A stretch of DNA of 64,000 nucleotides. Origin: an uncultured Candidatus Saccharibacteria bacterium. Lineage in GTDB: Bacteria; Patescibacteriota; Minisyncoccia; Phycocordibacterales; UBA2100. A program made the translations under genes and the position numbers. Every line of letters begins with the position of its first letter. Position 1 is the first letter of the stretch. Shown here in pieces: positions 2,212 through 50,070 of the stretch. Below the pieces are notes generated by a model that was not told the DNA's origin, did no database searches, and saw only the letters and a list, made by a program, of their open reading frames with translations. The stretch covers positions 3,345 through 67,344 of the forward strand of contig CAYRHX010000002.1 in NCBI GenBank assembly GCA_964424265.1. Reading direction: 5' to 3'.

Positions 2212-4634
2212 TGAAACATCGAGGTCGATATTTTTTTCAAGACGAGATCAAGAGATGCTAGAGCATTGGCAATCTGAGAATAGTAGTCTTCAAACGGAAG
2301 TAGAGAAAATTGCGCTCTGGATAACTTCGGCGTAATAAGGACATCGAATGAAACTACGTTTGACTGCGCGCCATCGCTGTCACGAATAAGCGTTATGTAG
2401 TAAGTGCCGGGCGGTGTTGGGATTTGCGTTGCAGAAGTCCCCTTACCAACACTGTCATCCATTGTCGTTGGAAATGTAAAGCTAAGACTGCCGCTCGACG
2501 CTCCAGACACACCTGTGACAAAAGCGCCTACCGTTGAAGAAGTGTCGTACACAGACAAGGAGTTGGCGCTTTTAGAGGTATCGAATCCGGATCCGGTGAT
2601 CTCAACGACACTTCCTGCGGCTCCTCGCATCGGACTAATGGCGCTTATGGTGGGCGGGGTAGTAATAGTGAGGAATCGCTCAAGAATTAAAGTGCGATTG
2701 TTGGTCGTATCGGTGACCACGATCGTCAGTGTCCGTGAGCCTACCGTAGATTCCGGCACTTTAAAAGAAATTTGCATGTATGCTCCAGCTCCCGGAGCCG
2801 ACGCGATCGAACTAGGATATGCATCGATAAACCAATCCTCCCCTCCTGAGATTGTCGCTGAGACTGAAACGTCGGACGGCGGACAACTGGCACGGTCTTT
2901 GTTGTTGAGCGTAAATGAAACGTACCCATACGAACCGGATCCAAGTTGTGTTCTACCCGCCATGTCGGCCGCCTCAAACCCGATGAGCTCACACACGACT
3001 GGCTTTACAGCAACCGCAAAGGATGCGGTGGAACGTTTTTTGATAGAGAACGATCCGATGGAAATTCCATGACTATCCCACGCAAACGAGCTTCCCTGCA
3101 TAAGCGCTTGCTGTGAATTCGGATCAATCGCGTAATTCGCATTGATGAGTCGCGGGAATGGGAGATAATCCGGGACGACCTGATTGATATGTATCCCTGC
3201 CGACAGCGGTGAGAGTACGGAATCAAATCCTGTCGGTTGCCTAAACTCAAGATACAGAGGCGCAATTGAAGGTACTGATGGATTCGTTATGACGGCAGCA
3301 CGTACCCCGCTTTGCGCTTCTAGCGGTAAAAGAGTGTAGCTGCCAGTTTGCCGTATGAATACTTTTGACGATGTCGCGAGCCACCCCAATATATCTTTAT
3401 AGAACGCGTTAAAATGCGCCGCCGAATCCCCGTTCCCCATCACGTCAAAAGAGTTTCCATATTCGGAGTGGTAGCAGCCGGTATCCAGAGAAAGGCCTGT
3501 ACAACTCCATGAATTCGCGTGCATCACGCCGAGTTCGTGCCCCATTTCGTGCGCAAGCACATACTCAAAGCCAGACATGTTTGACTTCTGCCATCCGTCA
3601 TCGGGCCATCCAACCCAGCCTTGCGACAGTCGATACGCGCCGCCATTAAATGTCACGTCTGATTTTCCGACAAACGCGCAACCGCCCTGCCACCCATTGA
3701 TGACAAATACTAGACGTCCATAACGCGATAGGTCTATTCGATTTTGAGTGATGTGATTCTTTACTTCTGACTGATCAAGCGTAGGAGAGACACATCCGAG
3801 ATATGAAGAGGTAGGTATTGATATCCAATCAGTGACATCACCAACGAATCGGATGTTCTTATATGATTGTTCATCGTAATATTTCTCGAAATTGCCGGTG
3901 AAAATCATTTTCTTCATTTTGTCTTTGGTCGGTGTATTCGGCAGCCCTGGTTGCGTAATGAGAATGATGAGCGTATTTTGCATACCTACCGTCTCCAGCT
4001 TCGGCTTTTTGAGAACTCTGAATTCTCCTGCGCGCGCCTCCGCAATGATCTTCTTCCCTTTCTGATACCCCTTGATCTCCACGACGGCACCGGAGGTAAG
4101 CGCGGGTGCGCCTCCCGCAAGATAGAGGGAGAAGCGTTCGGTCCCCGTATTTACCTGATAGGCAAAACGCGAATTGCGCTCATTGGAGAAATCGTCGGTA
4201 TGGAGCACGTCAAGAGTGCCGGTGACTGTTGTTTGTATTTCCACTTCTGCTTGGATTGCGCTCGGAAGTTTGGCACGAGCTTCGGGCGAGATCACGTTCC
4301 GGAGAAAGGCCTGAGGATCGCTCTGTGCGAGCTCCTCCATTATCCGTCCTCTTTTTTGGGCGATTTTCAGTTGTTGCGCGGGCGATGTCGACGTGGCGCT
4401 CCGAGCTCCGATACCCGTTATCGCCGGTCGAAGTGTATCGGTAAGAGAACGAAGCTCACGAAGTCCTTTCGTGGATATTCGTTCGGGAATGCGATCAGTC
4501 TCAATCGCTGACAGCGCGATTGGTCCACCAGTGAGTACAATGAGGCCACACAAGACAGCCGCAAATACGAGATGTCGGGCCGAGGTAATCTTCCCTTTCA
4601 CCGGAGCATGGTAACACTCTTTACGTCCCTTCAC
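2208..4634 (-). CDS. Secreted zinc metalloprotease (HExxH...H zincin) with C-terminal IPT/TIG-like domain
   Basis: Signal/TM at N-terminus; VLAHEMGHELGVMHANSW zinc-binding motif; C-terminal ISPMRGAAGSVVEITGSGF resembles an IPT/TIG fold. Four-nt overlap with the downstream gene suggests an operon. Confidence 0.6.
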   Translation of the reverse strand: MKGRKECYHAPVKGKITSARHLVFAAVLCGLIVLTGGPIALSAIETDRIPERISTKGLRELRSLTDTLRPAITGIGARSATSTSPAQQLKIAQKRGRIMEELAQSDPQAFLRNVISPEARAKLPSAIQAEVEIQTTVTGTLDVLHTDDFSNERNSRFAYQVNTGTERFSLYLAGGAPALTSGAVVEIKGYQKGKKIIAEARAGEFRVLKKPKLETVGMQNTLIILITQPGLPNTPTKDKMKKMIFTGNFEKYYDEQSYKNIRFVGDVTDWISIPTSSYLGCVSPTLDQSEVKNHITQNRIDLSRYGRLVFVINGWQGGCAFVGKSDVTFNGGAYRLSQGWVGWPDDGWQKSNMSGFEYVLAHEMGHELGVMHANSWSCTGLSLDTGCYHSEYGNSFDVMGNGDSAAHFNAFYKDILGWLATSSKVFIRQTGSYTLLPLEAQSGVRAAVITNPSVPSIAPLYLEFRQPTGFDSVLSPLSAGIHINQVVPDYLPFPRLINANYAIDPNSQQALMQGSSFAWDSHGISIGSFSIKKRSTASFAVAVKPVVCELIGFEAADMAGRTQLGSGSYGYVSFTLNNKDRASCPPSDVSVSATISGGEDWFIDAYPSSIASAPGAGAYMQISFKVPESTVGSRTLTIVVTDTTNNRTLILERFLTITTPPTISAISPMRGAAGSVVEITGSGFDTSKSANSLSVYDTSSTVGAFVTGVSGASSGSLSFTFPTTMDDSVGKGTSATQIPTPPGTYYITLIRDSDGAQSNVVSFDVLITPKLSRAQFSLLPFEDYYSQIANALASLDLVLKKISTSMFQ

Positions 4635-15138: not shown

Positions 15139-15166
15139 AGCGTATCAAACAAATCCCGCGCGAATC

Positions 15167-15316
15167 TAGAGCACGTTTGAAAACGCTTAACCGGAGTGAG
15201 GGGCGGCATTCCCGAGGAATCCCCGCAGTACGAAGAGTGCGAGGATTGAGGATTTTCCAGCAGGAAAATCCGGGTTCCGAGGGAATACCGCCTCGGAGCA
15301 GAGGTTTTCAAATATG
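15167..15316 (+). mobile_element. MITE-like ~147-bp inverted-repeat element, copy 1
   Basis: TAGAGCACGTTTGAAAAC ... GTTTTCAAATATG terminal inverted repeats; internal perfect hairpin GGATTTTCC-agca-GGAAAATCC and arm pairing GGCGGCATTCCC / GGGAATACCGCC. About 90% identical to 28560..28707. Confidence 0.7.
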
Positions 15317-15318
15317 TT

Positions 15319-15633
15319 CTACAATTTCTTGATATCGAGCTTCTCCAATCGCAGCGCCTTGAACAAGGCGTACACAATGGCAGCAATAATGATGAAGTCT
15401 ATTGCATTGGAGAGAAAGGCTCCGATCTTCACCGATCCGAGTGACCAGCCTGCAAGCGAATCAGCCGATCCGATCAGCGCACCGATAATCGGATTGAGTA
15501 GATCTTGCACAAAAGATGAAACGACCTTCGAAACGGCCGTGCCCAGAATGAATCCTATGGCGAGCCCCATCACGCCCTGTTCCCGTATGAAATTGATGAA
15601 GCCCTGGAATGACCCAACGATATGATCTTGCAT
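15319..15633 (-). CDS. mscL: Large-conductance mechanosensitive channel
   Basis: MQDHIVGSFQGFINFIREQGVMGLAIGFILGTA... is canonical MscL. Confidence 0.85.
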   Translation of the reverse strand: MQDHIVGSFQGFINFIREQGVMGLAIGFILGTAVSKVVSSFVQDLLNPIIGALIGSADSLAGWSLGSVKIGAFLSNAIDFIIIAAIVYALFKALRLEKLDIKKL

Positions 15634-27221: not shown

Positions 27222-28562
27222 ATGAAAAGCACATTTCACATACAACGTTCGAGACATAAGGAAAGCCGGGGGCAGATCTTGATATTAACGCTCGTATTGT
27301 TTGCCGCTATCGCGGTAACTGCAGTCACGGGGGTTTCCGCACCAATTCTCCGCGAAATCCGCATTGGTAAAGATTTGCAACTCTCCAAACAAAGCTATTA
27401 CACCGCGGAGGCAGGGAGCGAGGACGCATACCATCGCATACGCAGCAACCTTGCCACATCGTTCCCCTCGACCCTCGCGGTAGGCGGCGCAACGACCACC
27501 ATTACTCTCTCCACCATCGACCTATCGAATCAGGAGATCGTCTCCGTCGGCAACATGAATAATCACATACGAACCATCGTAAAAGAAATCACGGTCACTG
27601 ACGGATTCGACTTCAACTTTGCGCTTCAAACAGGCGTGGGCGGTATATCCATGAGTAACAACGCGAGTGTAAACGGCAACGTTTATTCAAGCGGACCGGT
27701 GACGAGCACCAATTCAAATTCAAACCAATATAATTACGTCCATGGGGCTATCGTTTCTGCCGGACCAACCGGGCTTGTGCATCAGATACACTCCACAAGC
27801 AGTGTCTATGCGCACACTATTACCAATTCCACGATTGATAAAGACGCGTACTACATAACCTTCGCAGGCGCCACATCGAGCGTGACCGTATCAGGGGTGA
27901 AGTATCCAAACAGCGCCGACCAACCAACCATCCCGATGCCAATATCCGATGAGCTGATCGCCTCATGGGAGACAGACGCCGTAGCAGGAGGTACCGCCAC
28001 ATGCACAAATGGCACCTACTCGATCACATCGAACGTGACGATCGGTCCAAAGAAAATACCGTGCAACCTATCGATCAGCGGCAGCGGAACCACCGTGACG
28101 CTACGGGGCGCACTCTGGGTCACGGGGAACATCACGATCGCCAACTCCTCAGTTATGAGGGTTGACGATTCTGTAGGGAACAAAAGCGTCCCCGTCATAG
28201 CGGACAAACCAGGTAACAATGCCACGAGCGCGCTTATCTCAATCAGCGGAAGCTCCAACTTCTACGGCTCCACCGGCAACTCGAGCTCATACGTGATGTT
28301 GATTTCGCAAAACAATAGCGCGGAAACAGGGGGCAACAACCTCGCGATAGACATCGTGAATGGCGCTACGGGAAACCTTCTTACGTACGCCGCGCACGGG
28401 CAGGTCCGACTCCAAAATAACGTCAACTTGCGTGAAGTAACCGCATACAAAATCACCCTTCTAAACAACGCGATCGTTAACTACTCGATTGGCCTTGCAC
28501 AGCCGTTGTTTACTTCGGGGGCAGGAGGATCGTGGAAAATTAAGAGATGGAAAGAGCGCTAG
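27222..28562 (+). CDS. Large pilin-like protein (446 aa) with N-terminal hydrophobic pilin-type helix but no Glu5; Thr/Ser/Asn/Gly-rich beta-rich body (possible minor pilin/tip protein)
   Basis: MKSTFHIQRSRHKESRG|QILILTLVLFAAIAV...; last gene of the pilin operon. Confidence 0.5.
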   Translation: MKSTFHIQRSRHKESRGQILILTLVLFAAIAVTAVTGVSAPILREIRIGKDLQLSKQSYYTAEAGSEDAYHRIRSNLATSFPSTLAVGGATTTITLSTIDLSNQEIVSVGNMNNHIRTIVKEITVTDGFDFNFALQTGVGGISMSNNASVNGNVYSSGPVTSTNSNSNQYNYVHGAIVSAGPTGLVHQIHSTSSVYAHTITNSTIDKDAYYITFAGATSSVTVSGVKYPNSADQPTIPMPISDELIASWETDAVAGGTATCTNGTYSITSNVTIGPKKIPCNLSISGSGTTVTLRGALWVTGNITIANSSVMRVDDSVGNKSVPVIADKPGNNATSALISISGSSNFYGSTGNSSSYVMLISQNNSAETGGNNLAIDIVNGATGNLLTYAAHGQVRLQNNVNLREVTAYKITLLNNAIVNYSIGLAQPLFTSGAGGSWKIKRWKER

Positions 28563-28707
28563 AGCATGTTTGAAAACGTTTAACCGGAGTGAGAGGCGGT
28601 ATTTCCGAGGAATCCCCGCAGCACGAAGATTGCGAGGATTGAGGATTTTTCAGCAGGAAAATCCGGGTTCCGAGGGAATACCGCCTCGAAGCGAAGGTTT
28701 GGAAGCA
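28560..28707 (+). mobile_element. MITE-like ~147-bp inverted-repeat element, copy 2
   Basis: TAGAGCATGTTTGAAAACG...GGATTTTTCAGCAGGAAAATCC...GGGAATACCGCC...GGTTTGGAAGCATG; begins on the stop codon of the pilin-like gene and sits between convergent gene ends. Confidence 0.7.
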
Positions 28708-28739
28708 TGCCCTAGCTGTGTCCCAATCACCGTTCCGCG

Positions 28740-33498: not shown

Positions 33499-33647
33499 AA
33501 CGTATGTATTTATCAGTAATATTGATTATGGTAGCACGGGGGGTCGATCTGTCCTTTAGTCTAGACTGCCGTACTCGAATCAATTCCACTATGCGAAGTC
33601 GGGGGTATTGCCTTCGACCTTGCATACAGGCGGGGCGAAGTTTTTTC

Positions 33648-43264: not shown

Positions 43265-43936
43265 TTAATGAACACCTAACACCAGATCCGACCAGGCAAG
43301 TATTTTCCTTGCCAAGAACACACCGAATCTCTTCTCGCCCAAGCCATTGACCGAGAGGTGCACCGTTCCGTGTGGAAGTTTGCCCGACTTAAACGCCTTT
43401 TTGTTTTTACGCCAATCAACTACTGTCTTTTGGAATTGGCTCATCGGAATGGTAGTCTTTTCCGACCAAAACTGCAAACTTTGTCTCTCGTTACAATCTG
43501 GATATATATGTAACCGTATCTTCAAATTATTCTTCTTGAGCCCTACGGCCTTTGTAAACCACTTGATCATGAAATTTATTATCGCTGGATTCGAGTTCAC
43601 AAACCTAATCTGCTGCGTCGACTTCGCTCCTTCCCCAATATACAGTCCGAGTCCGAGCATGAAAAGATCGCGGCGAGAAAGGTGGCCGACATCATCCTTT
43701 GCTTCTACTCGTGCGCGTTCGAGCGACTCCCTCTTCAGCTTACTCTTAGCTTCGCCAGAAGCAGCCCGAGCATTACCAATACGCTGTATCGTCTCAGTAT
43801 TAGGAATATACGGCACATCAGCGAGCCAGATAGCCAATGTGCTCTTTGATACACCCGCCACCTTCGCAATGTAATTATACGAGTGCCCATCCTTACGTAG
43901 AGCGATCGCGGTCATTCGCGCGTGGGCCTTTGTCAT
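43265..43936 (-). CDS. HTH-domain protein with LAGLIDADG-like motif (possible free-standing homing-endonuclease-like gene)
   Basis: N-terminal HTH (ALRKDGHSYNYIAKVAGVSKSTLAIWL), then DLFMLGLGLYIGEGAKS...QIRFVNSNPAIINFMIKWF resembling the LAGLIDADG core plus following beta-strands; recognised by eye only. Confidence 0.4.
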   Translation of the reverse strand: MTKAHARMTAIALRKDGHSYNYIAKVAGVSKSTLAIWLADVPYIPNTETIQRIGNARAASGEAKSKLKRESLERARVEAKDDVGHLSRRDLFMLGLGLYIGEGAKSTQQIRFVNSNPAIINFMIKWFTKAVGLKKNNLKIRLHIYPDCNERQSLQFWSEKTTIPMSQFQKTVVDWRKNKKAFKSGKLPHGTVHLSVNGLGEKRFGVFLARKILAWSDLVLGVH

Positions 43937-44040: not shown

Positions 44041-45159
44041 ATGCATCCTTTCGTTCGATCTTTCCTCGCATTCGTCGGCGTCATCGCCGTCGCGGCTTCA
44101 ATATTTCTCCTCTTACCAAAGACGAGCCTCGCCCCTGTACAACAAACAACGGACCAACCGGACATAAACATGGAGGCAACACCTGTTTCTTCGAAAGGAT
44201 CGTCACCATCTACAACACCCACCAAGACTACTACTACTTCAAAGATCCCGGTGCCTGCGAAAGCGGCGCCCATAAGCGAAGCCATACGCATCACAAATCC
44301 GTATCCATTTCCCCCACCCTCAACAGAATCCGTGACGCGAGCTGCTCGAGCAGCGCTCGTCAACATCTTCTGCATTTCAAGTAATCGCACCTTCAAATCA
44401 GTCTCGGGCTCCGGCGTCGTAATCGACCCGAGAGGGGTCATACTCACCAACGCTCATGTTGCCCAATATGTACTCTTATCTGCTCGACCTGAGCTTGGAA
44501 TATCGTGCACAGTGCGCTCCGGGGCGCCCGCTATTGCCCGATGGCGCGCCCAGGTGCTCTATATTCCTCCAATATGGGTGCAATCACACGCCTCTGAGAT
44601 ACTCTACAGTAAAACTGCGAGTGCGGGCGAACATGATTATTCTCTGCTTCTCATTACTGGATCGGTCGACAATACCACCACGAGCCCCTTCCCCTTTTTG
44701 CCAGTCGACGTGCGCGAGGCTGTTGCATTTCCTGGTGACCAAATCTTGGTGGCAAGTTATCCCGCAGAATTCCTTGGTGGCGTGAACGCGCAATTCAACC
44801 TCCATCCGGTGAGCTCGATTACAACCATCGGGCAATTATATGCATTCTTCGCAGAAACCGCTGACATATTTTCACTTGGCAGTATCATAGAAGCTCAGAG
44901 CGGCTCGTCCGGCGGCGCAGCAGTCAATATGTGGGGGCACTTGGTTGGTTTGGTCACTGCCACAAGTGATGGAGAAACGACCGCAGATCGAGATCTCCGC
45001 GCGCTCTCTATGAGTTACGTAAATCGAGACATTGCAGTACAAACAGGACTGGATTTGGCACAGATTTTAACTGGTGATGTGGCCGCATATGCGATCGACT
45101 TCAACGCACGCATCTCACCCATTCTCATAGCGCTATATCTTCCCCACATCTCCTTGTAG
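44041..45159 (+). CDS. Membrane-anchored/secreted trypsin-like serine protease (S1 family)
   Basis: TM/signal, then ...GVILTNAHVAQYV... (His), ...GSSGGAAVNMWGHLVGLVTA (Ser). Start placed at MHPFVRSF; the track ORF begins at 43837, overlapping the upstream gene. Confidence 0.65.
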   Translation: MHPFVRSFLAFVGVIAVAASIFLLLPKTSLAPVQQTTDQPDINMEATPVSSKGSSPSTTPTKTTTTSKIPVPAKAAPISEAIRITNPYPFPPPSTESVTRAARAALVNIFCISSNRTFKSVSGSGVVIDPRGVILTNAHVAQYVLLSARPELGISCTVRSGAPAIARWRAQVLYIPPIWVQSHASEILYSKTASAGEHDYSLLLITGSVDNTTTSPFPFLPVDVREAVAFPGDQILVASYPAEFLGGVNAQFNLHPVSSITTIGQLYAFFAETADIFSLGSIIEAQSGSSGGAAVNMWGHLVGLVTATSDGETTADRDLRALSMSYVNRDIAVQTGLDLAQILTGDVAAYAIDFNARISPILIALYLPHISL

Positions 45160-45162
45160 TAA

Positions 45163-45233
45163 TCGGGGTGCCCAGAATCGAACTGGGTCTACTTGGTCCC
45201 AAACCAAGCGTACTACCGGTATACGACACCCCG
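45163..45233 (-). tRNA. tRNA-Pro (anticodon UGG)
   Basis: Minus-strand read CGGGGTG-tc-GTATACCGGTAGTACG-CTTGG-TTTGGGA-CCAAG-taga-CCCAG-TTCGATT-CTGGG-CACCCCG-A. Acceptor, anticodon and T arms are clean; the D-arm is slightly irregular; CCA is not encoded. Confidence 0.75.
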
Positions 45234-46054
45234 CCGCGCCCTTCATGATTTTACGAAGGAGGGTTGCGCGCATGCTACCACAAAAAGTACGCGATACGAA
45301 AAACGGTGCGAGAATATCCGGCTGATTTGCACCTTGGCAACAAACCATTAGCGTTGCCTCTGCACCTCCACTCGCGGTTCACGTGTAACATCCAATATTC
45401 GGGACTTATCCCGTCAAGTGGGTAGTTTATCCCCACAACACTAACGAAAAAGTGTCAAAATAGTGTGCCATAATACATGACAAGACCGCCTCTTTGGACA
45501 GTGCGTGGGAGGTCGTAAAAGCAATTTGCTTTTTCCCCGTGCTTTGCCCCAATAGGCGGTCTTACCTCCTAAGTATACCCGATATTTTGGGGTTTTTGTC
45601 GAAAAACCTAGTGTTGGGGATATTCCTTTATTAGCCTTAATCTAAGCCCTAAAACATGGCGAAGAATGAAAGAACCCACCCGACCCCAGCGAAATTGGCG
45701 GCAAAAGGTCTTCGTGGGGAGCATCTGACAAAAAAAGAAAATCTCCGAGTATACGGAAGTCTTTTGACTCAGACACCCGATAAGAAACGTCGCTAGAGAC
45801 GCTTAATGCGCCTCACGGCTCTCTTAGGTATCCAACACGGCGACCCCCACGGTTTAAATCCATCGTGGGGGTTTCTGTGTGTAGAAAAGATATACCAATC
45901 TCCCTTTTCAGCTATAAAATAAGCCACAGTTTCCTGTAGGAAGGGTAACGTAAGCCCCTCAATGTCCTCATCATTGAACCACCCTAAATGACTGTAGGTG
46001 TCTATCCACTCTATACGGTATTTATACCCCTTGCGTGGGATAGTACCCCAATAT

Positions 46055-46145
46055 TCTGGTGATTAGGGCATGTTTGAAAACGCTTAACCGAGAGCGAGAG
46101 ACGGTATTCCCGAGGAATCCCCGCAGCACGAGGAGTGCGAGGTAC
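46055..46145 (+). mobile_element. MITE-like element, copy 3 (5' half only, truncated)
   Basis: TAGGGCATGTTTGAAAACGCTTAACCGAGAGCGAGAGACGGTATTCCCGAGGAATCCCCGCAGCACGAGGAGTGCGAGG then diverges; matches the left arm of copies 1 and 2. Confidence 0.6.
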
Positions 46146-46186
46146 GAACTCGATCTATTCGTCTCTAAAGGACAAGATCTTGTCCT

Positions 46187-46567
46187 TTATAGATTCCCCT
46201 CCAATGCTTGCTCAAATAGCCTACATGTGGCCGTTTTTGTGCTGTTATTAAGAATTACTCCGACCACATCAATTTGATACTCACGCTTGTCCTTTATCGT
46301 CTCCATATAGAGAGATGCTGTACGCGCGATTTTCCTCAATTTTCTAGCATCCACCAGCTCTTCCGGACGGTAATCAGGGCTTTCACGTGAAACCGTCTTT
46401 ACCTCCACAAATCTGACTACCCCATCTTTTTCACCGATAATGTCGATCTCGCCCCATTTTTTTCTATAATTCCGTACAGTTATTGTGTACCCCTTTCTCT
46501 CCAAAAATTTGCAGGCGACATCCTCGCCCGCGCTTCCGACCTCCTTACGTGCGTAGCCATCGATCAT
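46187..46567 (-). CDS. YraN-family (UPF0102) PD-(D/E)xK endonuclease-like protein
   Basis: ...GSAGEDVACKFLERKGYTITVRNYRKKWGEIDIIGEKDGVVRFVEVKT... Start placed at MIDGYARK; the track ORF has a 46-codon N-terminal extension (to 46705). Confidence 0.65.
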   Translation of the reverse strand: MIDGYARKEVGSAGEDVACKFLERKGYTITVRNYRKKWGEIDIIGEKDGVVRFVEVKTVSRESPDYRPEELVDARKLRKIARTASLYMETIKDKREYQIDVVGVILNNSTKTATCRLFEQALEGNL

Positions 46568-46958
46568 ATACCTCGCATTATAGTCCAAATTATAGACAGG
46601 GTTCACGTGTAACGATCTCCAGGCGTTACTTAAGAAACGTCCCCCGGCCTTGTCCTTTACGGTTTTTGCACCTTCGATCCCCAAAATACGCCCGAGATGC
46701 GTCATATTCCTGCGGGAGCGAGTGTTTCATGTCCAAATAACGACTGTTGTCCGTTATCCACATATCCACTGAGTTGTCCCCAGTTTCGCAAAAAAGCTAT
46801 GAAACGCGAGCTTAATACTATCGGAAGGAATCTCCGTTGTTTCGGACACACCAACTCACCTGTCCTATAGAAAATACGGCTTCAACAAAGGACAAATTCA
46901 CTATCTACAACACAAAATTCCCTTGACTCCAATACCATATATAGAATAGGTTTGCCGT

Positions 46959-49700: not shown

Positions 49701-50070
49701 CCCTGCTTCGCCAAAGCTACGCAGGATGCCGCTTCGCGGCAAAAGAAAATGCCGCCTCACCTGGCGACCCGTTTCTATTTTTAGGTCGCCGCCGTGAAGC
49801 GGCATTTAGTGTGTCTCCGTGCCTCTAAAAGCGACTTGAGATAATGATTTTCGGTACGTTTGCATTCAATCGATCACAGAGGTGATCGTATATATTTTAT
49901 GCGAGAGTACTTAGTATCGTTTTTACTCGTTTGCTTTTTGTGCAACGAGAGACAGAAAGAACATTCAGGAACTCTATTGAGTTCCTACAAGCAATAATAA
50001 CCTTCTATCGGACACTGTAAAGGACATGCTGGGGATAACCCTGTCCTTTATCGGACACGCCAAAAAGCGG

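What the first reader, a model, noticed from the sequence alone, without database searches (positions are those of the whole stretch)
45234..46186. ~950-bp gene-poor region beside tRNA-Pro, ending in a truncated MITE copy
After tRNA-Pro (45163-45233, minus) there is no ORF of 60 aa or more on either strand for ~820 bp, which is unusual in this compact genome. The region contains a long imperfect hairpin (AGACCGCC…GGCGGTCT, ~45480-45560), a CCCCCACG-N12-CGTGGGGG stem with a T-loop-like GGTTTAAATCC (~45845-45875), and a 46-codon very basic ORF (MAKNERTHPTPAKLAAKGLRGEHLTKKENLRVYGSLLTQTPDKKRR, 45656-45796). It ends with a 5'-truncated copy of the MITE-like element next to a YraN-like nuclease gene. 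Candidates are an unannotated structured ncRNA (I could not recognise RNase P, tmRNA or SRP signatures by eye), a decayed integrated element at a tRNA hotspot, or a small basic protein gene.
Basis: seen in the sequence. Interest (0 to 1): 0.55.

Follow-up and report, generated by a model that had tools for sequence, protein, structure and literature searches.

The report
Two missed phage genes beside tRNA-Pro
The apparently empty 950-bp stretch next to tRNA-Pro is a strain-specific insertion of phage-derived DNA that carries two small genes of unknown function which ordinary gene finding misses, so it is an annotation gap and not a new kind of RNA gene.

Summary
The window comes from a Kaiserbacteria-like (CPR) genome. 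In 81 relatives, yraN is followed by tRNA-Pro after a median of 108 bp. Here the spacer is 953 bp, so about 870 bp (~45290-46161) is lineage-specific.

The insert holds two convergent small genes whose stop codons overlap (CTAG, 45793-45796):
- **The 46-aa basic ORF (45656-45796, +).** It belongs to a conserved phage family. It scores 64 bits against a profile built without it, and its relatives match PHROG 5079.
- **An 82-codon gene on the minus strand (45793-46041).** It has 46 homologues (best E 1e-19), all 79-105 aa and all phage-borne where context was seen. ATC stands where the homologues have Met, so ORF finders skip it.

The same convergent pair recurs in 6 other phage loci.

The long hairpin is the core of a 195-nt structure bounded by inverted repeats (z -5.9), directly upstream of the basic gene. 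It is single-copy and unexplained. The CCCCCACG stem lies inside the minus-strand gene and looks like the basic gene's terminator.

Rfam finds only tRNAs. The function of both proteins is unknown. The finding is ordinary, with minor curiosities.

The parts
45163..45233 (-). tRNA-Pro (anticodon TGG), native to the host lineage
   Evidence: ARAGORN and Rfam. It is 71/71 identical to the tRNA-Pro of relative L010 and 69/71 to L007 and L009.
45271..45282 (-). Retained native promoter-like box of tRNA-Pro (GTGGTAGCATGC on the minus strand). It marks the left limit of the insertion.
   Evidence: Relatives carry GTGCTAGTATGC or GTGTTAGCATGC at the same place upstream of tRNA-Pro. This was read from the sequences by eye. 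The simple sigma-70 scan did not list it.
45375..45390 (-). parS-like site TGTTACACGTGAACCG, 2 mismatches to TGTTNCACGTGAAACA
   Evidence: It is the best match in the window. The same motif class lies upstream of and inside yraN here (46379-46394, 46599-46614) and in most relatives. No binding was tested.
45428..45622 (.). 195-nt structured element bounded by inverted repeats (TATCCCCACAACACTA ... TAGTGTTGGGGATA). Its function is unexplained.
   Evidence: Inverted repeats I5 and I6. MFE -70 kcal/mol, z -5.9 on the + strand; z -4.4 on the minus strand with flanks. A covariance model found no second copy in the window or in 92 loci.
45482..45563 (.).
   Evidence: -37 kcal/mol, z -5.0.
45609..45624 (+). 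TAGTGTTGGGGATATT: a possible promoter or operator for the basic-protein gene (-10-like GATATT at 45619-45624, 31 nt before the ATG)
   Evidence: Read from the sequence. L156 has TAGTGTTGGTATAAT at a similar place upstream of its homologue. This is inference only; the sigma-70 scan did not list it.
45656..45796 (+). Gene for a 46-aa Lys/Ala-rich basic protein (phage family; relatives match PHROG 5079)
   Evidence: 57% identical to a 44-aa gene in L153. 14 full-length relatives in viral contigs. 64.1 bits, E 1e-17, against a profile built without it. 14 of 15 family members match PHROG 5079.
45835..45880 (+). Strong hairpin followed by TTTCTGTGTGT: a terminator-like element for the basic-protein gene, embedded in the coding sequence of the convergent gene
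   Evidence: -30.3 kcal/mol, z -5.3 as + strand RNA against -25.5, z -3.5 as minus-strand RNA. The terminator scan did not list it.
45793..46041 (-). 82-codon gene for a small beta-barrel protein of a phage family (relatives match PHROG 25889). ATC (46041-46039) stands where homologues have Met.
   Evidence: phmmer against 1.84 billion representatives gave 46 hits at E<=1e-3, best 1e-19, aligned end to end. Relatives match PHROG 25889 (17/30). AlphaFold2 pLDDT 89.8. Never called as a gene in three assemblies.
46064..46142 (+). Left half of the 156-nt palindromic repeated (MITE-like) element. Its terminal bases supply the in-frame TAA 22 nt upstream of the ATC.
46162..46193 (.). TAAAGGACA...TGTCCTTTA palindrome overlapping the yraN stop codon. 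It is native, conserved in relatives, and marks the right limit of the insertion.
   Evidence: I2. The same palindrome follows yraN in relatives. The motif occurs 7 times in the window against 0.2 expected. z -3.3.
46187..46705 (-). yraN (UPF0102) gene, the conserved neighbour
   Evidence: Pfam PF02021, E 1e-22. Synteny in 86 relatives.

Best explanation
The region is a lineage-specific insertion of about 870 bp (~45290-46161) of phage-derived DNA in the normally short yraN-tRNA-Pro spacer of a Kaiserbacteria-like (CPR) genome. It is not empty. It carries a two-gene cassette that also occurs in phage genomes, made of two convergent genes whose stop codons overlap.

- **The basic-protein gene (+ strand).** It encodes a 46-aa basic protein. 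It looks like a self-contained transcription unit of the phage 'moron' type: its own upstream region rich in inverted repeats, a -10-like box, the ORF, and a strong hairpin followed by a T-rich tract about 40 nt downstream.
- **The minus-strand gene.** It has 82 codons and encodes a small Sm/SH3-like beta-barrel protein. The reading frame is intact, but ATC stands in place of the start codon and a truncated repeat element sits 22 nt upstream. It is probably either poorly translated from a non-canonical start, on read-through transcripts from yraN, or freshly inactivated.

Shown: the insertion, the homology of both genes, the recurrence of the pair in phages, and the stability of the structures. 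Inferred: the promoter, the terminator, the expression state, and how the DNA arrived (a leftover of a lost prophage, or illegitimate recombination into a spacer that tolerates insertions). The biochemical function of both proteins is unknown.
For: **Insertion.**
- 81 of 86 relatives have tRNA-Pro downstream of yraN with a median spacer of 108 bp; 65 are at most 222 bp.
- The window has 953 bp with no nucleotide similarity to any relative.
- The native tRNA-Pro, its promoter-like box and the yraN palindrome are retained at the two edges.

**Minus-strand gene.**
- 46 homologues, best E 1e-19, all 79-105 aa and aligned over the full length; conserved Trp/Asp/Pro positions are kept.
- Homologues sit in contigs with terminase, portal and lysins, one directly upstream of a large terminase subunit.
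- 17 of 30 match PHROG 25889.
- The confident model matches only uncharacterised phage proteins in BFVD.

**Basic-protein gene.**
- Relatives are found in 14 viral contigs spanning 38-68% GC and in 7 cultured phages.
- It scores 64 bits against a self-excluded profile.
- Relatives match PHROG 5079.

**The pair.** The same convergent arrangement occurs in L153, L159, L160, L164, L167 and L168.

**Terminator.** The hairpin is more stable on the + strand.
Against: - The window's own two proteins do not reach E<=0.01 against the PHROG profiles directly; only their relatives do.
- The basic-protein gene has no Shine-Dalgarno sequence.
- The simple scans listed neither its promoter nor its terminator.
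- The minus-strand gene has no canonical start and was never called in three assemblies, so it may be dead.
- No donor phage, integrase or att-like repeat was found.
- About 360 bp (45290-45655), including the 195-nt structure, is not accounted for by the cassette. It has no counterpart in most phage loci.
- No expression data could be consulted.
Confidence: 0.8

Rival explanations
1. The 195-nt element bounded by inverted repeats (45428-45622), or a roughly 400-nt transcript from it to the 45880 hairpin, is a novel structured non-coding or cis-regulatory RNA. This RNA, not the small ORFs, would be the functional content of the region.
For: The predicted structure is exceptional: z -5.9 for 45428-45622 and z -5.1 for 45476-45885. 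Two of 14 other loci with the basic-protein gene (L155, L156) also have large inverted repeats upstream of it, with ACACTA/TAGTGT arms.
Against: - Rfam finds nothing even at E<=10.
- Both strands fold about equally well, as expected for DNA-level inverted repeats.
- No homologue exists, so no covariation test is possible.
- 12 of 15 loci with the gene have unstructured upstream regions.
- Both ORFs are conserved at the protein level across 38-68% GC, which an RNA-only reading cannot explain.
Confidence: 0.1
2. The 195-nt element is a second non-autonomous transposon (MITE) with 16-nt terminal inverted repeats and a TA target duplication. It would have landed upstream of the basic-protein gene independently of the phage cassette.
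For: - Terminal inverted repeats TATCCCCACAACACTA / TAGTGTTGGGGATA with one indel, and TA at both ends (and the sequence).
- The genome already hosts another palindromic repeat family with three copies in the window.
- Both strands fold well.
Against: - It is a single copy in the 64-kb window.
- A covariance model found no copy in 618 kb of relatives and phage loci.
- There is no exact match of the paired ends in the viral collection.
- The TA may simply be part of the repeat.
Confidence: 0.2
3. The whole insert is inert, decaying junk. Both small ORFs are non-functional remnants of a degraded prophage and nothing in the region is expressed or selected.
For: - The minus-strand gene lacks a start codon, and a truncated repeat element has replaced its upstream region.
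- The basic-protein gene has no Shine-Dalgarno sequence.
- The closest species-level relative (74% YraN identity) lacks the insert entirely.
Against: - Both reading frames are full-length without frameshifts or internal stops, and they keep the family's conserved residues.
- The basic-protein gene keeps its ATG and a strong strand-biased downstream hairpin.
- The sequence is identical in three independent assemblies.
- None of this proves selection.
Confidence: 0.25
4. The region is the scar of a classical integrase-mediated integration that targeted the tRNA-Pro gene.
For: It is adjacent to a tRNA gene. The content is phage-type. Lysogeny is reported to be common in Patescibacteria (PMC12911398).
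Against: - The insert lies on the 5' (promoter) side of tRNA-Pro, between yraN and the retained tRNA promoter.
- No integrase or recombinase remnant appears in any frame (Pfam).
- No duplicated tRNA segment is present.
- The only flanking direct repeat is 9 nt, with 0.33 expected by chance.
- The tRNA is native.
Confidence: 0.05

Closest known systems
PHROG 5079 small basic phage proteins (e.g. Caulobacter phage CcrBL9 gp148, Streptococcus phage Javan290_0058; all annotated 'hypothetical protein')
   Same: Length of 44-60 aa. N-terminal MAKNE[KR]T, central A..L, C-terminal LTQ.PDKK and a Lys-rich tail. 43-57% identity. Often a lone small gene set against the direction of its neighbours; in Javan290 it converges on and overlaps its neighbour, and in TMW 1.1386 P1 the unannotated match overlaps an annotated opposite-strand CDS.
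   Different: Here it sits in a cellular CPR chromosome outside any recognisable prophage. The window's own protein does not reach E<=0.01 against the PHROG profile. It has His-Pro-Thr-Pro where the family has Ser/Gly-x-Lys-Val.
PHROG 25889-type small phage proteins (e.g. an uncharacterised protein of Pelagibacter phage HTVC025P)
   Same: About 80-90 aa. Motif pattern Y.I.W.DTYS..GW ... WIPKG.I.KIK.L. The predicted small beta-barrel matches these phage proteins in BFVD. Often convergent with the small basic gene.
   Different: ATC stands in place of the start codon. Ala stands where at least 90% of relatives have Gly (position 47). The window's protein does not hit the PHROG profile directly. 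It is located in a bacterial spacer.
Phage 'morons' (autonomous promoter-gene-terminator units inserted between phage genes; established concept, cited from my own knowledge)
   Same: The basic-protein gene has its own upstream non-coding region and a downstream hairpin. It is oriented against its neighbour, and in temperate phages it lies antisense within the early operon.
   Different: The promoter and terminator are only inferred. No fitness function is known. Here the unit is in a host chromosome.
Sm/LSm and related SH3-like barrels (e.g. archaeal SmAP, MnxE/F)
   Same: Best PDB fold matches of the minus-strand gene's model, with TM 0.5-0.58.
   Different: E-values are 0.19 or worse, there is no sequence relationship, and Sm motifs were not examined. 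This is a fold-level hint only, not membership.
MITEs / palindromic repeat elements of the same genome (copies at 15166-15321 and 28559-28714)
   Same: 46064-46142 is 89-90% identical to the left half of that family. The 195-nt element shares the general architecture of terminal inverted repeats and a hairpin-forming body.
   Different: The 46064 copy lacks its right half. The 195-nt element is unrelated in sequence and is single-copy.

Membership tests
Small basic phage protein family (PHROG 5079) | Full-length similarity to family members, scored with a profile that excludes the query | tested here: met
   64.1 bits, E 1.2e-17 among 19,701 six-frame pieces. 43-57% identity over residues 1-46 to 15 relatives.
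Small basic phage protein family (PHROG 5079) | Direct match of the window's protein to the PHROG 5079 profile | tested here: not met
   Member 1 matched no family at E<=0.01, while 14 of 15 aligned members match with best E 1.8e-16. Membership is therefore by transitive homology.
Small beta-barrel phage protein family (PHROG 25889) | End-to-end homology with family members of the same length | tested here: met
   46 hits at E<=1e-3, 19 at E<=1e-10; query 10-89 aligns to protein residues 2-85.
Small beta-barrel phage protein family (PHROG 25889) | Direct match of the window's protein to the PHROG 25889 profile | tested here: not met
   Member 1 matched no family at E<=0.01, while 17 of 30 homologues match with best E 1.4e-8.
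Small beta-barrel phage protein family (PHROG 25889) | Intact gene with a canonical start codon | tested here: not met
   There is no ATG/GTG/TTG between the in-frame TAA (46065-46063) and codon 46. ATC stands at the position of the homologues' Met.
Housekeeping or other described structured RNAs (RNase P, tmRNA, SRP, 6S, all Rfam 15 families) | Covariance-model match at or near the gathering score | tested here: not met
   Only the four tRNAs pass. In the region the best non-tRNA matches are 14-21 bits against thresholds of 49-92. ARAGORN finds no tmRNA.
MITE (for the 195-nt element at 45428-45622) | Terminal inverted repeats | tested here: met
   Arms of 16/14 nt with one indel.
MITE (for the 195-nt element at 45428-45622) | Multiple dispersed copies | tested here: not met
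   No second copy in the window, in 92 loci totalling 618 kb, or in the viral collection with both ends exact. The rest of the genome was not available.
MITE (for the 195-nt element at 45428-45622) | Target-site duplication | tested here: inconclusive
   TA is present at both ends but may belong to the repeat itself (from the sequence).
Integrase-mediated island at a tRNA gene | Integrase or recombinase gene or remnant | tested here: not met
   No Pfam match in any of the 10 longest remaining frames at E<=10.
Integrase-mediated island at a tRNA gene | Insertion at the tRNA 3' end with a duplicated att segment | tested here: not met
   The insert is on the 5' side. The only flanking direct repeat is CCAATATTC, 9 nt, with 0.33 expected by chance.
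Intrinsic terminator (hairpin at 45835-45880) | GC-rich stem followed by a U-tract on the transcribed strand | tested here: inconclusive
   12-bp GC-rich stem at -30.3 kcal/mol, stronger on the + strand. It is followed by TTTCTGTGTGT, but the terminator scan did not list it.
parS centromere site | Match to TGTTNCACGTGAAACA | tested here: inconclusive
   2 mismatches at 45375-45390, and 10 sites with up to 3 mismatches in the window against 1.65 expected. No ParB or binding evidence.
Known anti-phage defence systems (PADLOC) | Profile match of either small protein | tested here: not met
   No family at E<=0.1.

The most novel reading that the evidence does not exclude
The convergent pair (46-aa basic protein plus small Sm/SH3-like barrel, with stop codons overlapping in CTAG) is an uncharacterised functional module that phages carry and that a streamlined CPR bacterium has captured. 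It might act, for example, as a nucleic-acid-binding regulator or exclusion pair. Under this reading, the unique 195-nt structure bounded by inverted repeats upstream would be its cis-regulatory RNA or operator, representing a new regulatory element.
Probability: 0.1. Interest if true: 0.5.

Novelty: new member of a known kind. Interest (0 to 1): 0.25.

Why it matters
The main value is as a caution for annotation. An apparently empty 950 bp in a compact CPR genome hides two real genes. One falls below the usual length cut-off and the other lacks a canonical start codon. A word-indexed homology search missed the second gene, while an exhaustive profile search found it.

The result also documents that phage gene cassettes persist outside prophages in Patescibacteria, and that the yraN-tRNA-Pro spacer is a recurrent site of insertion in this clade. 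The two protein families are widespread in phages and wholly uncharacterised, so their repeated convergent pairing is a small lead for phage biology. None of this is surprising to a specialist.

Tried and rejected
- **Rfam.** Searches at gathering and at E<=10 found nothing but tRNA.
- **Pfam, NCBIfam and PADLOC.** Pfam, NCBIfam and PADLOC gave no match for either small protein; Pfam also gave none for the ten next-longest frames of the region.
- **Word-indexed protein searches.** The search on the 89-codon frame found nothing, and the search on the 46-aa ORF found only itself. Both results were misleading, because the exhaustive phmmer search and the degenerate-pattern viral scan then found the families.
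- **Nucleotide comparisons.** blastn of the region against 143 relatives' loci and against 50,697 phage records found no similarity.
- **Neighbouring phage genes.** tblastn of the neighbours of the homologues against the region found no remnants of further phage genes.
- **195-nt element.** A covariance model of the element, and an exact-ends scan of viral contigs, found no second copy.
- **Replaced tRNA.** The idea that the tRNA-Pro was brought in by a phage was prompted by the CcrBL9 tRNA cluster. It was rejected because the tRNA is identical to that of relatives.
- **Origin of replication.** This idea was rejected because there is no GC-skew switch in the window.
- **Conserved structured leader.** This idea was rejected as a general feature of the basic-gene family, since z is about 0 in 12 of 15 loci.
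- **'HNH' label.** My by-eye reading of the Cys-rich ORF in relatives' spacers as HNH was not confirmed by Pfam.

Full report
**Setting.** The window is a contig of a Candidatus Kaiserbacteria-like bacterium (Paceibacterota, CPR). The YraN protein is found on ENA contigs of three assemblies, and its closest relatives are Kaiserbacteria MAGs. The finding lies between tRNA-Pro(TGG), 45163-45233 on the minus strand, and yraN/UPF0102, 46187-46705 on the minus strand.

**Check of the observation.**
- All described sequence features exist.
  - The long imperfect hairpin has arms at 45482-45509 and 45536-45563 and folds at -37 kcal/mol, z -5.0.
  - The CCCCCACG/CGTGGGGG stem extends to 45835-45880 and folds at -30.3 kcal/mol, z -5.3.
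  - The 46-codon ORF is at 45656-45796.
  - A partial copy of a repeated 156-nt palindromic element is at 46064-46142.
- The region contains the longest stretch of the window without a canonical-start ORF of 60 aa or more: 710 bp, against 265 bp for the next.
- Two corrections are needed.
  - The repeat copy keeps its left half on the + strand and lacks the right half.
  - The minus strand has an 89-codon stop-to-stop open frame (46062-45796) without ATG/GTG/TTG before codon 46.

**The region is an insertion.**
- In relatives the gene order membrane protein, yraN, tRNA-Pro, trypsin-like protease, tRNA-Gly(TCC), HU is conserved.
- Of 86 loci examined, 81 have tRNA-Pro downstream of yraN. The spacer has a median of 108 bp, and 65 are at most 222 bp. 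The window has 953 bp.
- Nothing in it resembles any relative at the DNA level.
- Both edges are native.
  - On the yraN side, the TAAAGGACA...TGTCCTTTA palindrome overlaps the stop codon, as in relatives.
  - On the tRNA side, there is a GTGGTAGCATGC box like the relatives' GTGCTAGTATGC.
  - The tRNA-Pro is identical to that of a relative.
- About 45290-46161 is therefore lineage-specific.
- Sixteen relatives also have expanded spacers (472-1789 bp) with other cargo: a Cys-rich ORF, or a TrmB-like regulator plus a membrane protein. The spacer is a recurrent site of accretion.

**What the insert contains.**

*No described RNA.* Rfam gives only the four tRNAs at gathering threshold. In the region at E<=10 it gives only noise of 14-21 bits against thresholds of 49-92.

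*The minus-strand gene.*
- The word-indexed protein search found nothing for the 89-codon frame.
- An exhaustive phmmer search of 1.84 billion representatives found 46 proteins at E<=1e-3, 19 of them at E<=1e-10 and the best at 1e-19. All are 79-105 aa and align end to end.
- Where the homologues have their Met, the window has ATC (46041-46039). An in-frame TAA lies 22 nt upstream, inside the terminal bases of the truncated repeat element.
- The gene, 45793-46041 on the minus strand, has 82 codons and is otherwise intact, with the invariant Trp, Asp and Pro retained.
- No gene caller called it in three assemblies.
- 17 of 30 homologues match PHROG 25889, of unknown function; none matches Pfam.
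- Their contigs carry terminase, portal, Rad52, Dam and lysins. The homologue P0002 lies directly upstream of a large terminase subunit.
- An AlphaFold2 model (pLDDT 89.8) is a small beta-barrel. It matches only uncharacterised phage proteins in BFVD and, non-significantly, Sm-like barrels in the PDB.

*The 46-aa basic ORF.*
- It is also a real gene. In L153, the contig of a 49%-identical homologue of the minus-strand gene, a 44-aa gene 57% identical to it lies immediately downstream in convergent orientation.
- A degenerate-pattern scan of viral contigs found 14 more full-length relatives in contigs of 38-68% GC.
- 14 of 15 family members match PHROG 5079, and seven cultured phages encode it as a 'hypothetical protein'.
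- Against a profile built without it, the window's ORF scores 64.1 bits.
- In five of the 14 viral loci, a relative of the minus-strand gene again follows in convergent orientation. With L153, the pair therefore recurs in six other loci.
- In the window the two stop codons overlap in CTAG (45793-45796).
- In temperate phages Javan290 and TMW 1.1386 P1, the small gene lies antisense within the early operon near the repressor and antirepressor.

*The hairpins.*
- The CCCCCACG stem lies about 40 nt downstream of the basic gene, inside the coding sequence of the convergent gene, and is followed by TTTCTGTGTGT. It is more stable as + strand RNA (-30.3, z -5.3) than as minus-strand RNA (-25.5, z -3.5). 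It is best read as the basic gene's terminator, although the simple scan did not list it.
Its z is -5.9, and both strands fold well. It ends 33 nt before the basic gene's ATG and overlaps a possible -10-like box (TAGTGTTGGGGATATT).
- Upstream structure is not a general feature of the family, with z about 0 in 12 of 15 loci. L155 and L156 do have large inverted repeats with ACACTA/TAGTGT arms, and L156 shares TAGTGTTGG next to TATAAT. This is a lead and is not established.
- A covariance model finds no second copy in the window or in 618 kb of loci, and an exact-ends scan of viral contigs finds none.
- The element may be an operator or leader, a single-copy MITE, or a chance product of insertion. 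I cannot decide among these.

**How it most likely works.**
- *Shown:* foreign, phage-type DNA with two conserved small genes sits in a normally short spacer.
- *Inferred:* the basic gene is an autonomous unit (upstream region, ORF, terminator) of the 'moron' type. The minus-strand gene, co-oriented with yraN and tRNA-Pro, could only be transcribed by read-through from yraN, and only translated from ATC. It is therefore weakly expressed or recently inactivated, perhaps when the repeat element replaced its upstream region.
- *Arrival:* no integrase remnant was found. There is no att-like duplication beyond a 9-nt repeat at chance level. No donor phage was found. The position on the 5' side of the tRNA also argues against classical tRNA-targeted integration. 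A leftover of a lost prophage, or illegitimate recombination, is more likely. Lysogeny is reported to be frequent in Patescibacteria (PMC12911398).
- *Function:* both proteins are of unknown function, and no defence, Pfam or NCBIfam model matches them.

**Verdict.** The small-protein candidate is right, the foreign-DNA idea is half right, and the ncRNA idea has no support. The region is an annotation gap caused by one very short gene and one gene without a canonical start, inside an insertion of phage origin. The genes are new members of known but uncharacterised phage families. Interest is low. The residual curiosities are the recurrent convergent pair, the ATC start and the unexplained 195-nt structure.

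Noticed in passing
window 45375-45390, 46379-46394, 46599-46614; relatives L005-L143 around yraN: Sites resembling the parS centromere consensus (TGTTNCACGTGAAACA) cluster at yraN. One lies upstream and one lies inside the coding sequence, where GTTTCACGTGAAA is kept even at synonymous positions of the VSRE codons. Many relatives carry 15-16/16 matches. The window has 10 sites with up to 3 mismatches against 1.65 expected.
   Followed up: partly
window 46166-46189, 46288-46296, 46651-46659, 50018-50050, 33550-33558: The 9-mer TAAAGGACA occurs 7 times against 0.2 expected, often as hairpin pairs at gene ends. The same palindrome directly follows the yraN stop codon in most relatives. It may be a clade-wide terminator or a protein-binding motif.
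   Followed up: partly
window 43265-43936 (minus strand): A 223-aa ORF with an N-terminal helix-turn-helix and a weak homing-endonuclease match (PADLOC HEase, E 0.005) sits between tRNA-Gly(TCC) and the protease gene. The closest relative L005 has no gene there. This is a second lineage-specific insertion beside a tRNA.
   Followed up: partly
L006 ~4530-4588, L009 ~4435-4485, L026 ~4430-4525: Just upstream of tRNA-Pro, some relatives carry one or two sequences that look like the 5' half of tRNA-Pro (acceptor strand, D arm, start of the anticodon stem). Each ends in ...GTGGGGA and a run of T.
   Followed up: no
L017, L025, L028, L069, L078, L101, L103 (yraN-tRNA-Pro spacer): A conserved Cys-rich ORF of about 127-150 aa (…CRDCYR…DFHH…CANCHRILHDE) occupies the same spacer in about a dozen relatives. 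It looks HNH-like by eye, but Pfam finds nothing at E<=0.01.
   Followed up: partly
window 15166-15321 and 28559-28714: There are two full copies (89% identical) of a 156-nt palindromic, intergenic repeat element whose ends are inverted (TAGAGCATGTTTGAAAAC ... GTTTTCAAATATGTTCTA). It is the family whose half copy lies at 46064-46142. Only short fragments match in relatives.
   Followed up: partly
L171 (Caulobacter phage CcrBL9, record 80780-80932): The homologue of the 46-aa protein (gp148) lies inside the phage's tRNA gene cluster, about 630 nt from a tRNA-Pro(TGG). This echoes the window's arrangement, but the window's tRNA-Pro is native, so the echo is probably coincidental.
   Followed up: yes
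window 45159-45163: The protease ORF ends 3 nt from the 3' end of the convergent tRNA-Pro. The closest relative L005 has about 110 nt between them.
   Followed up: no
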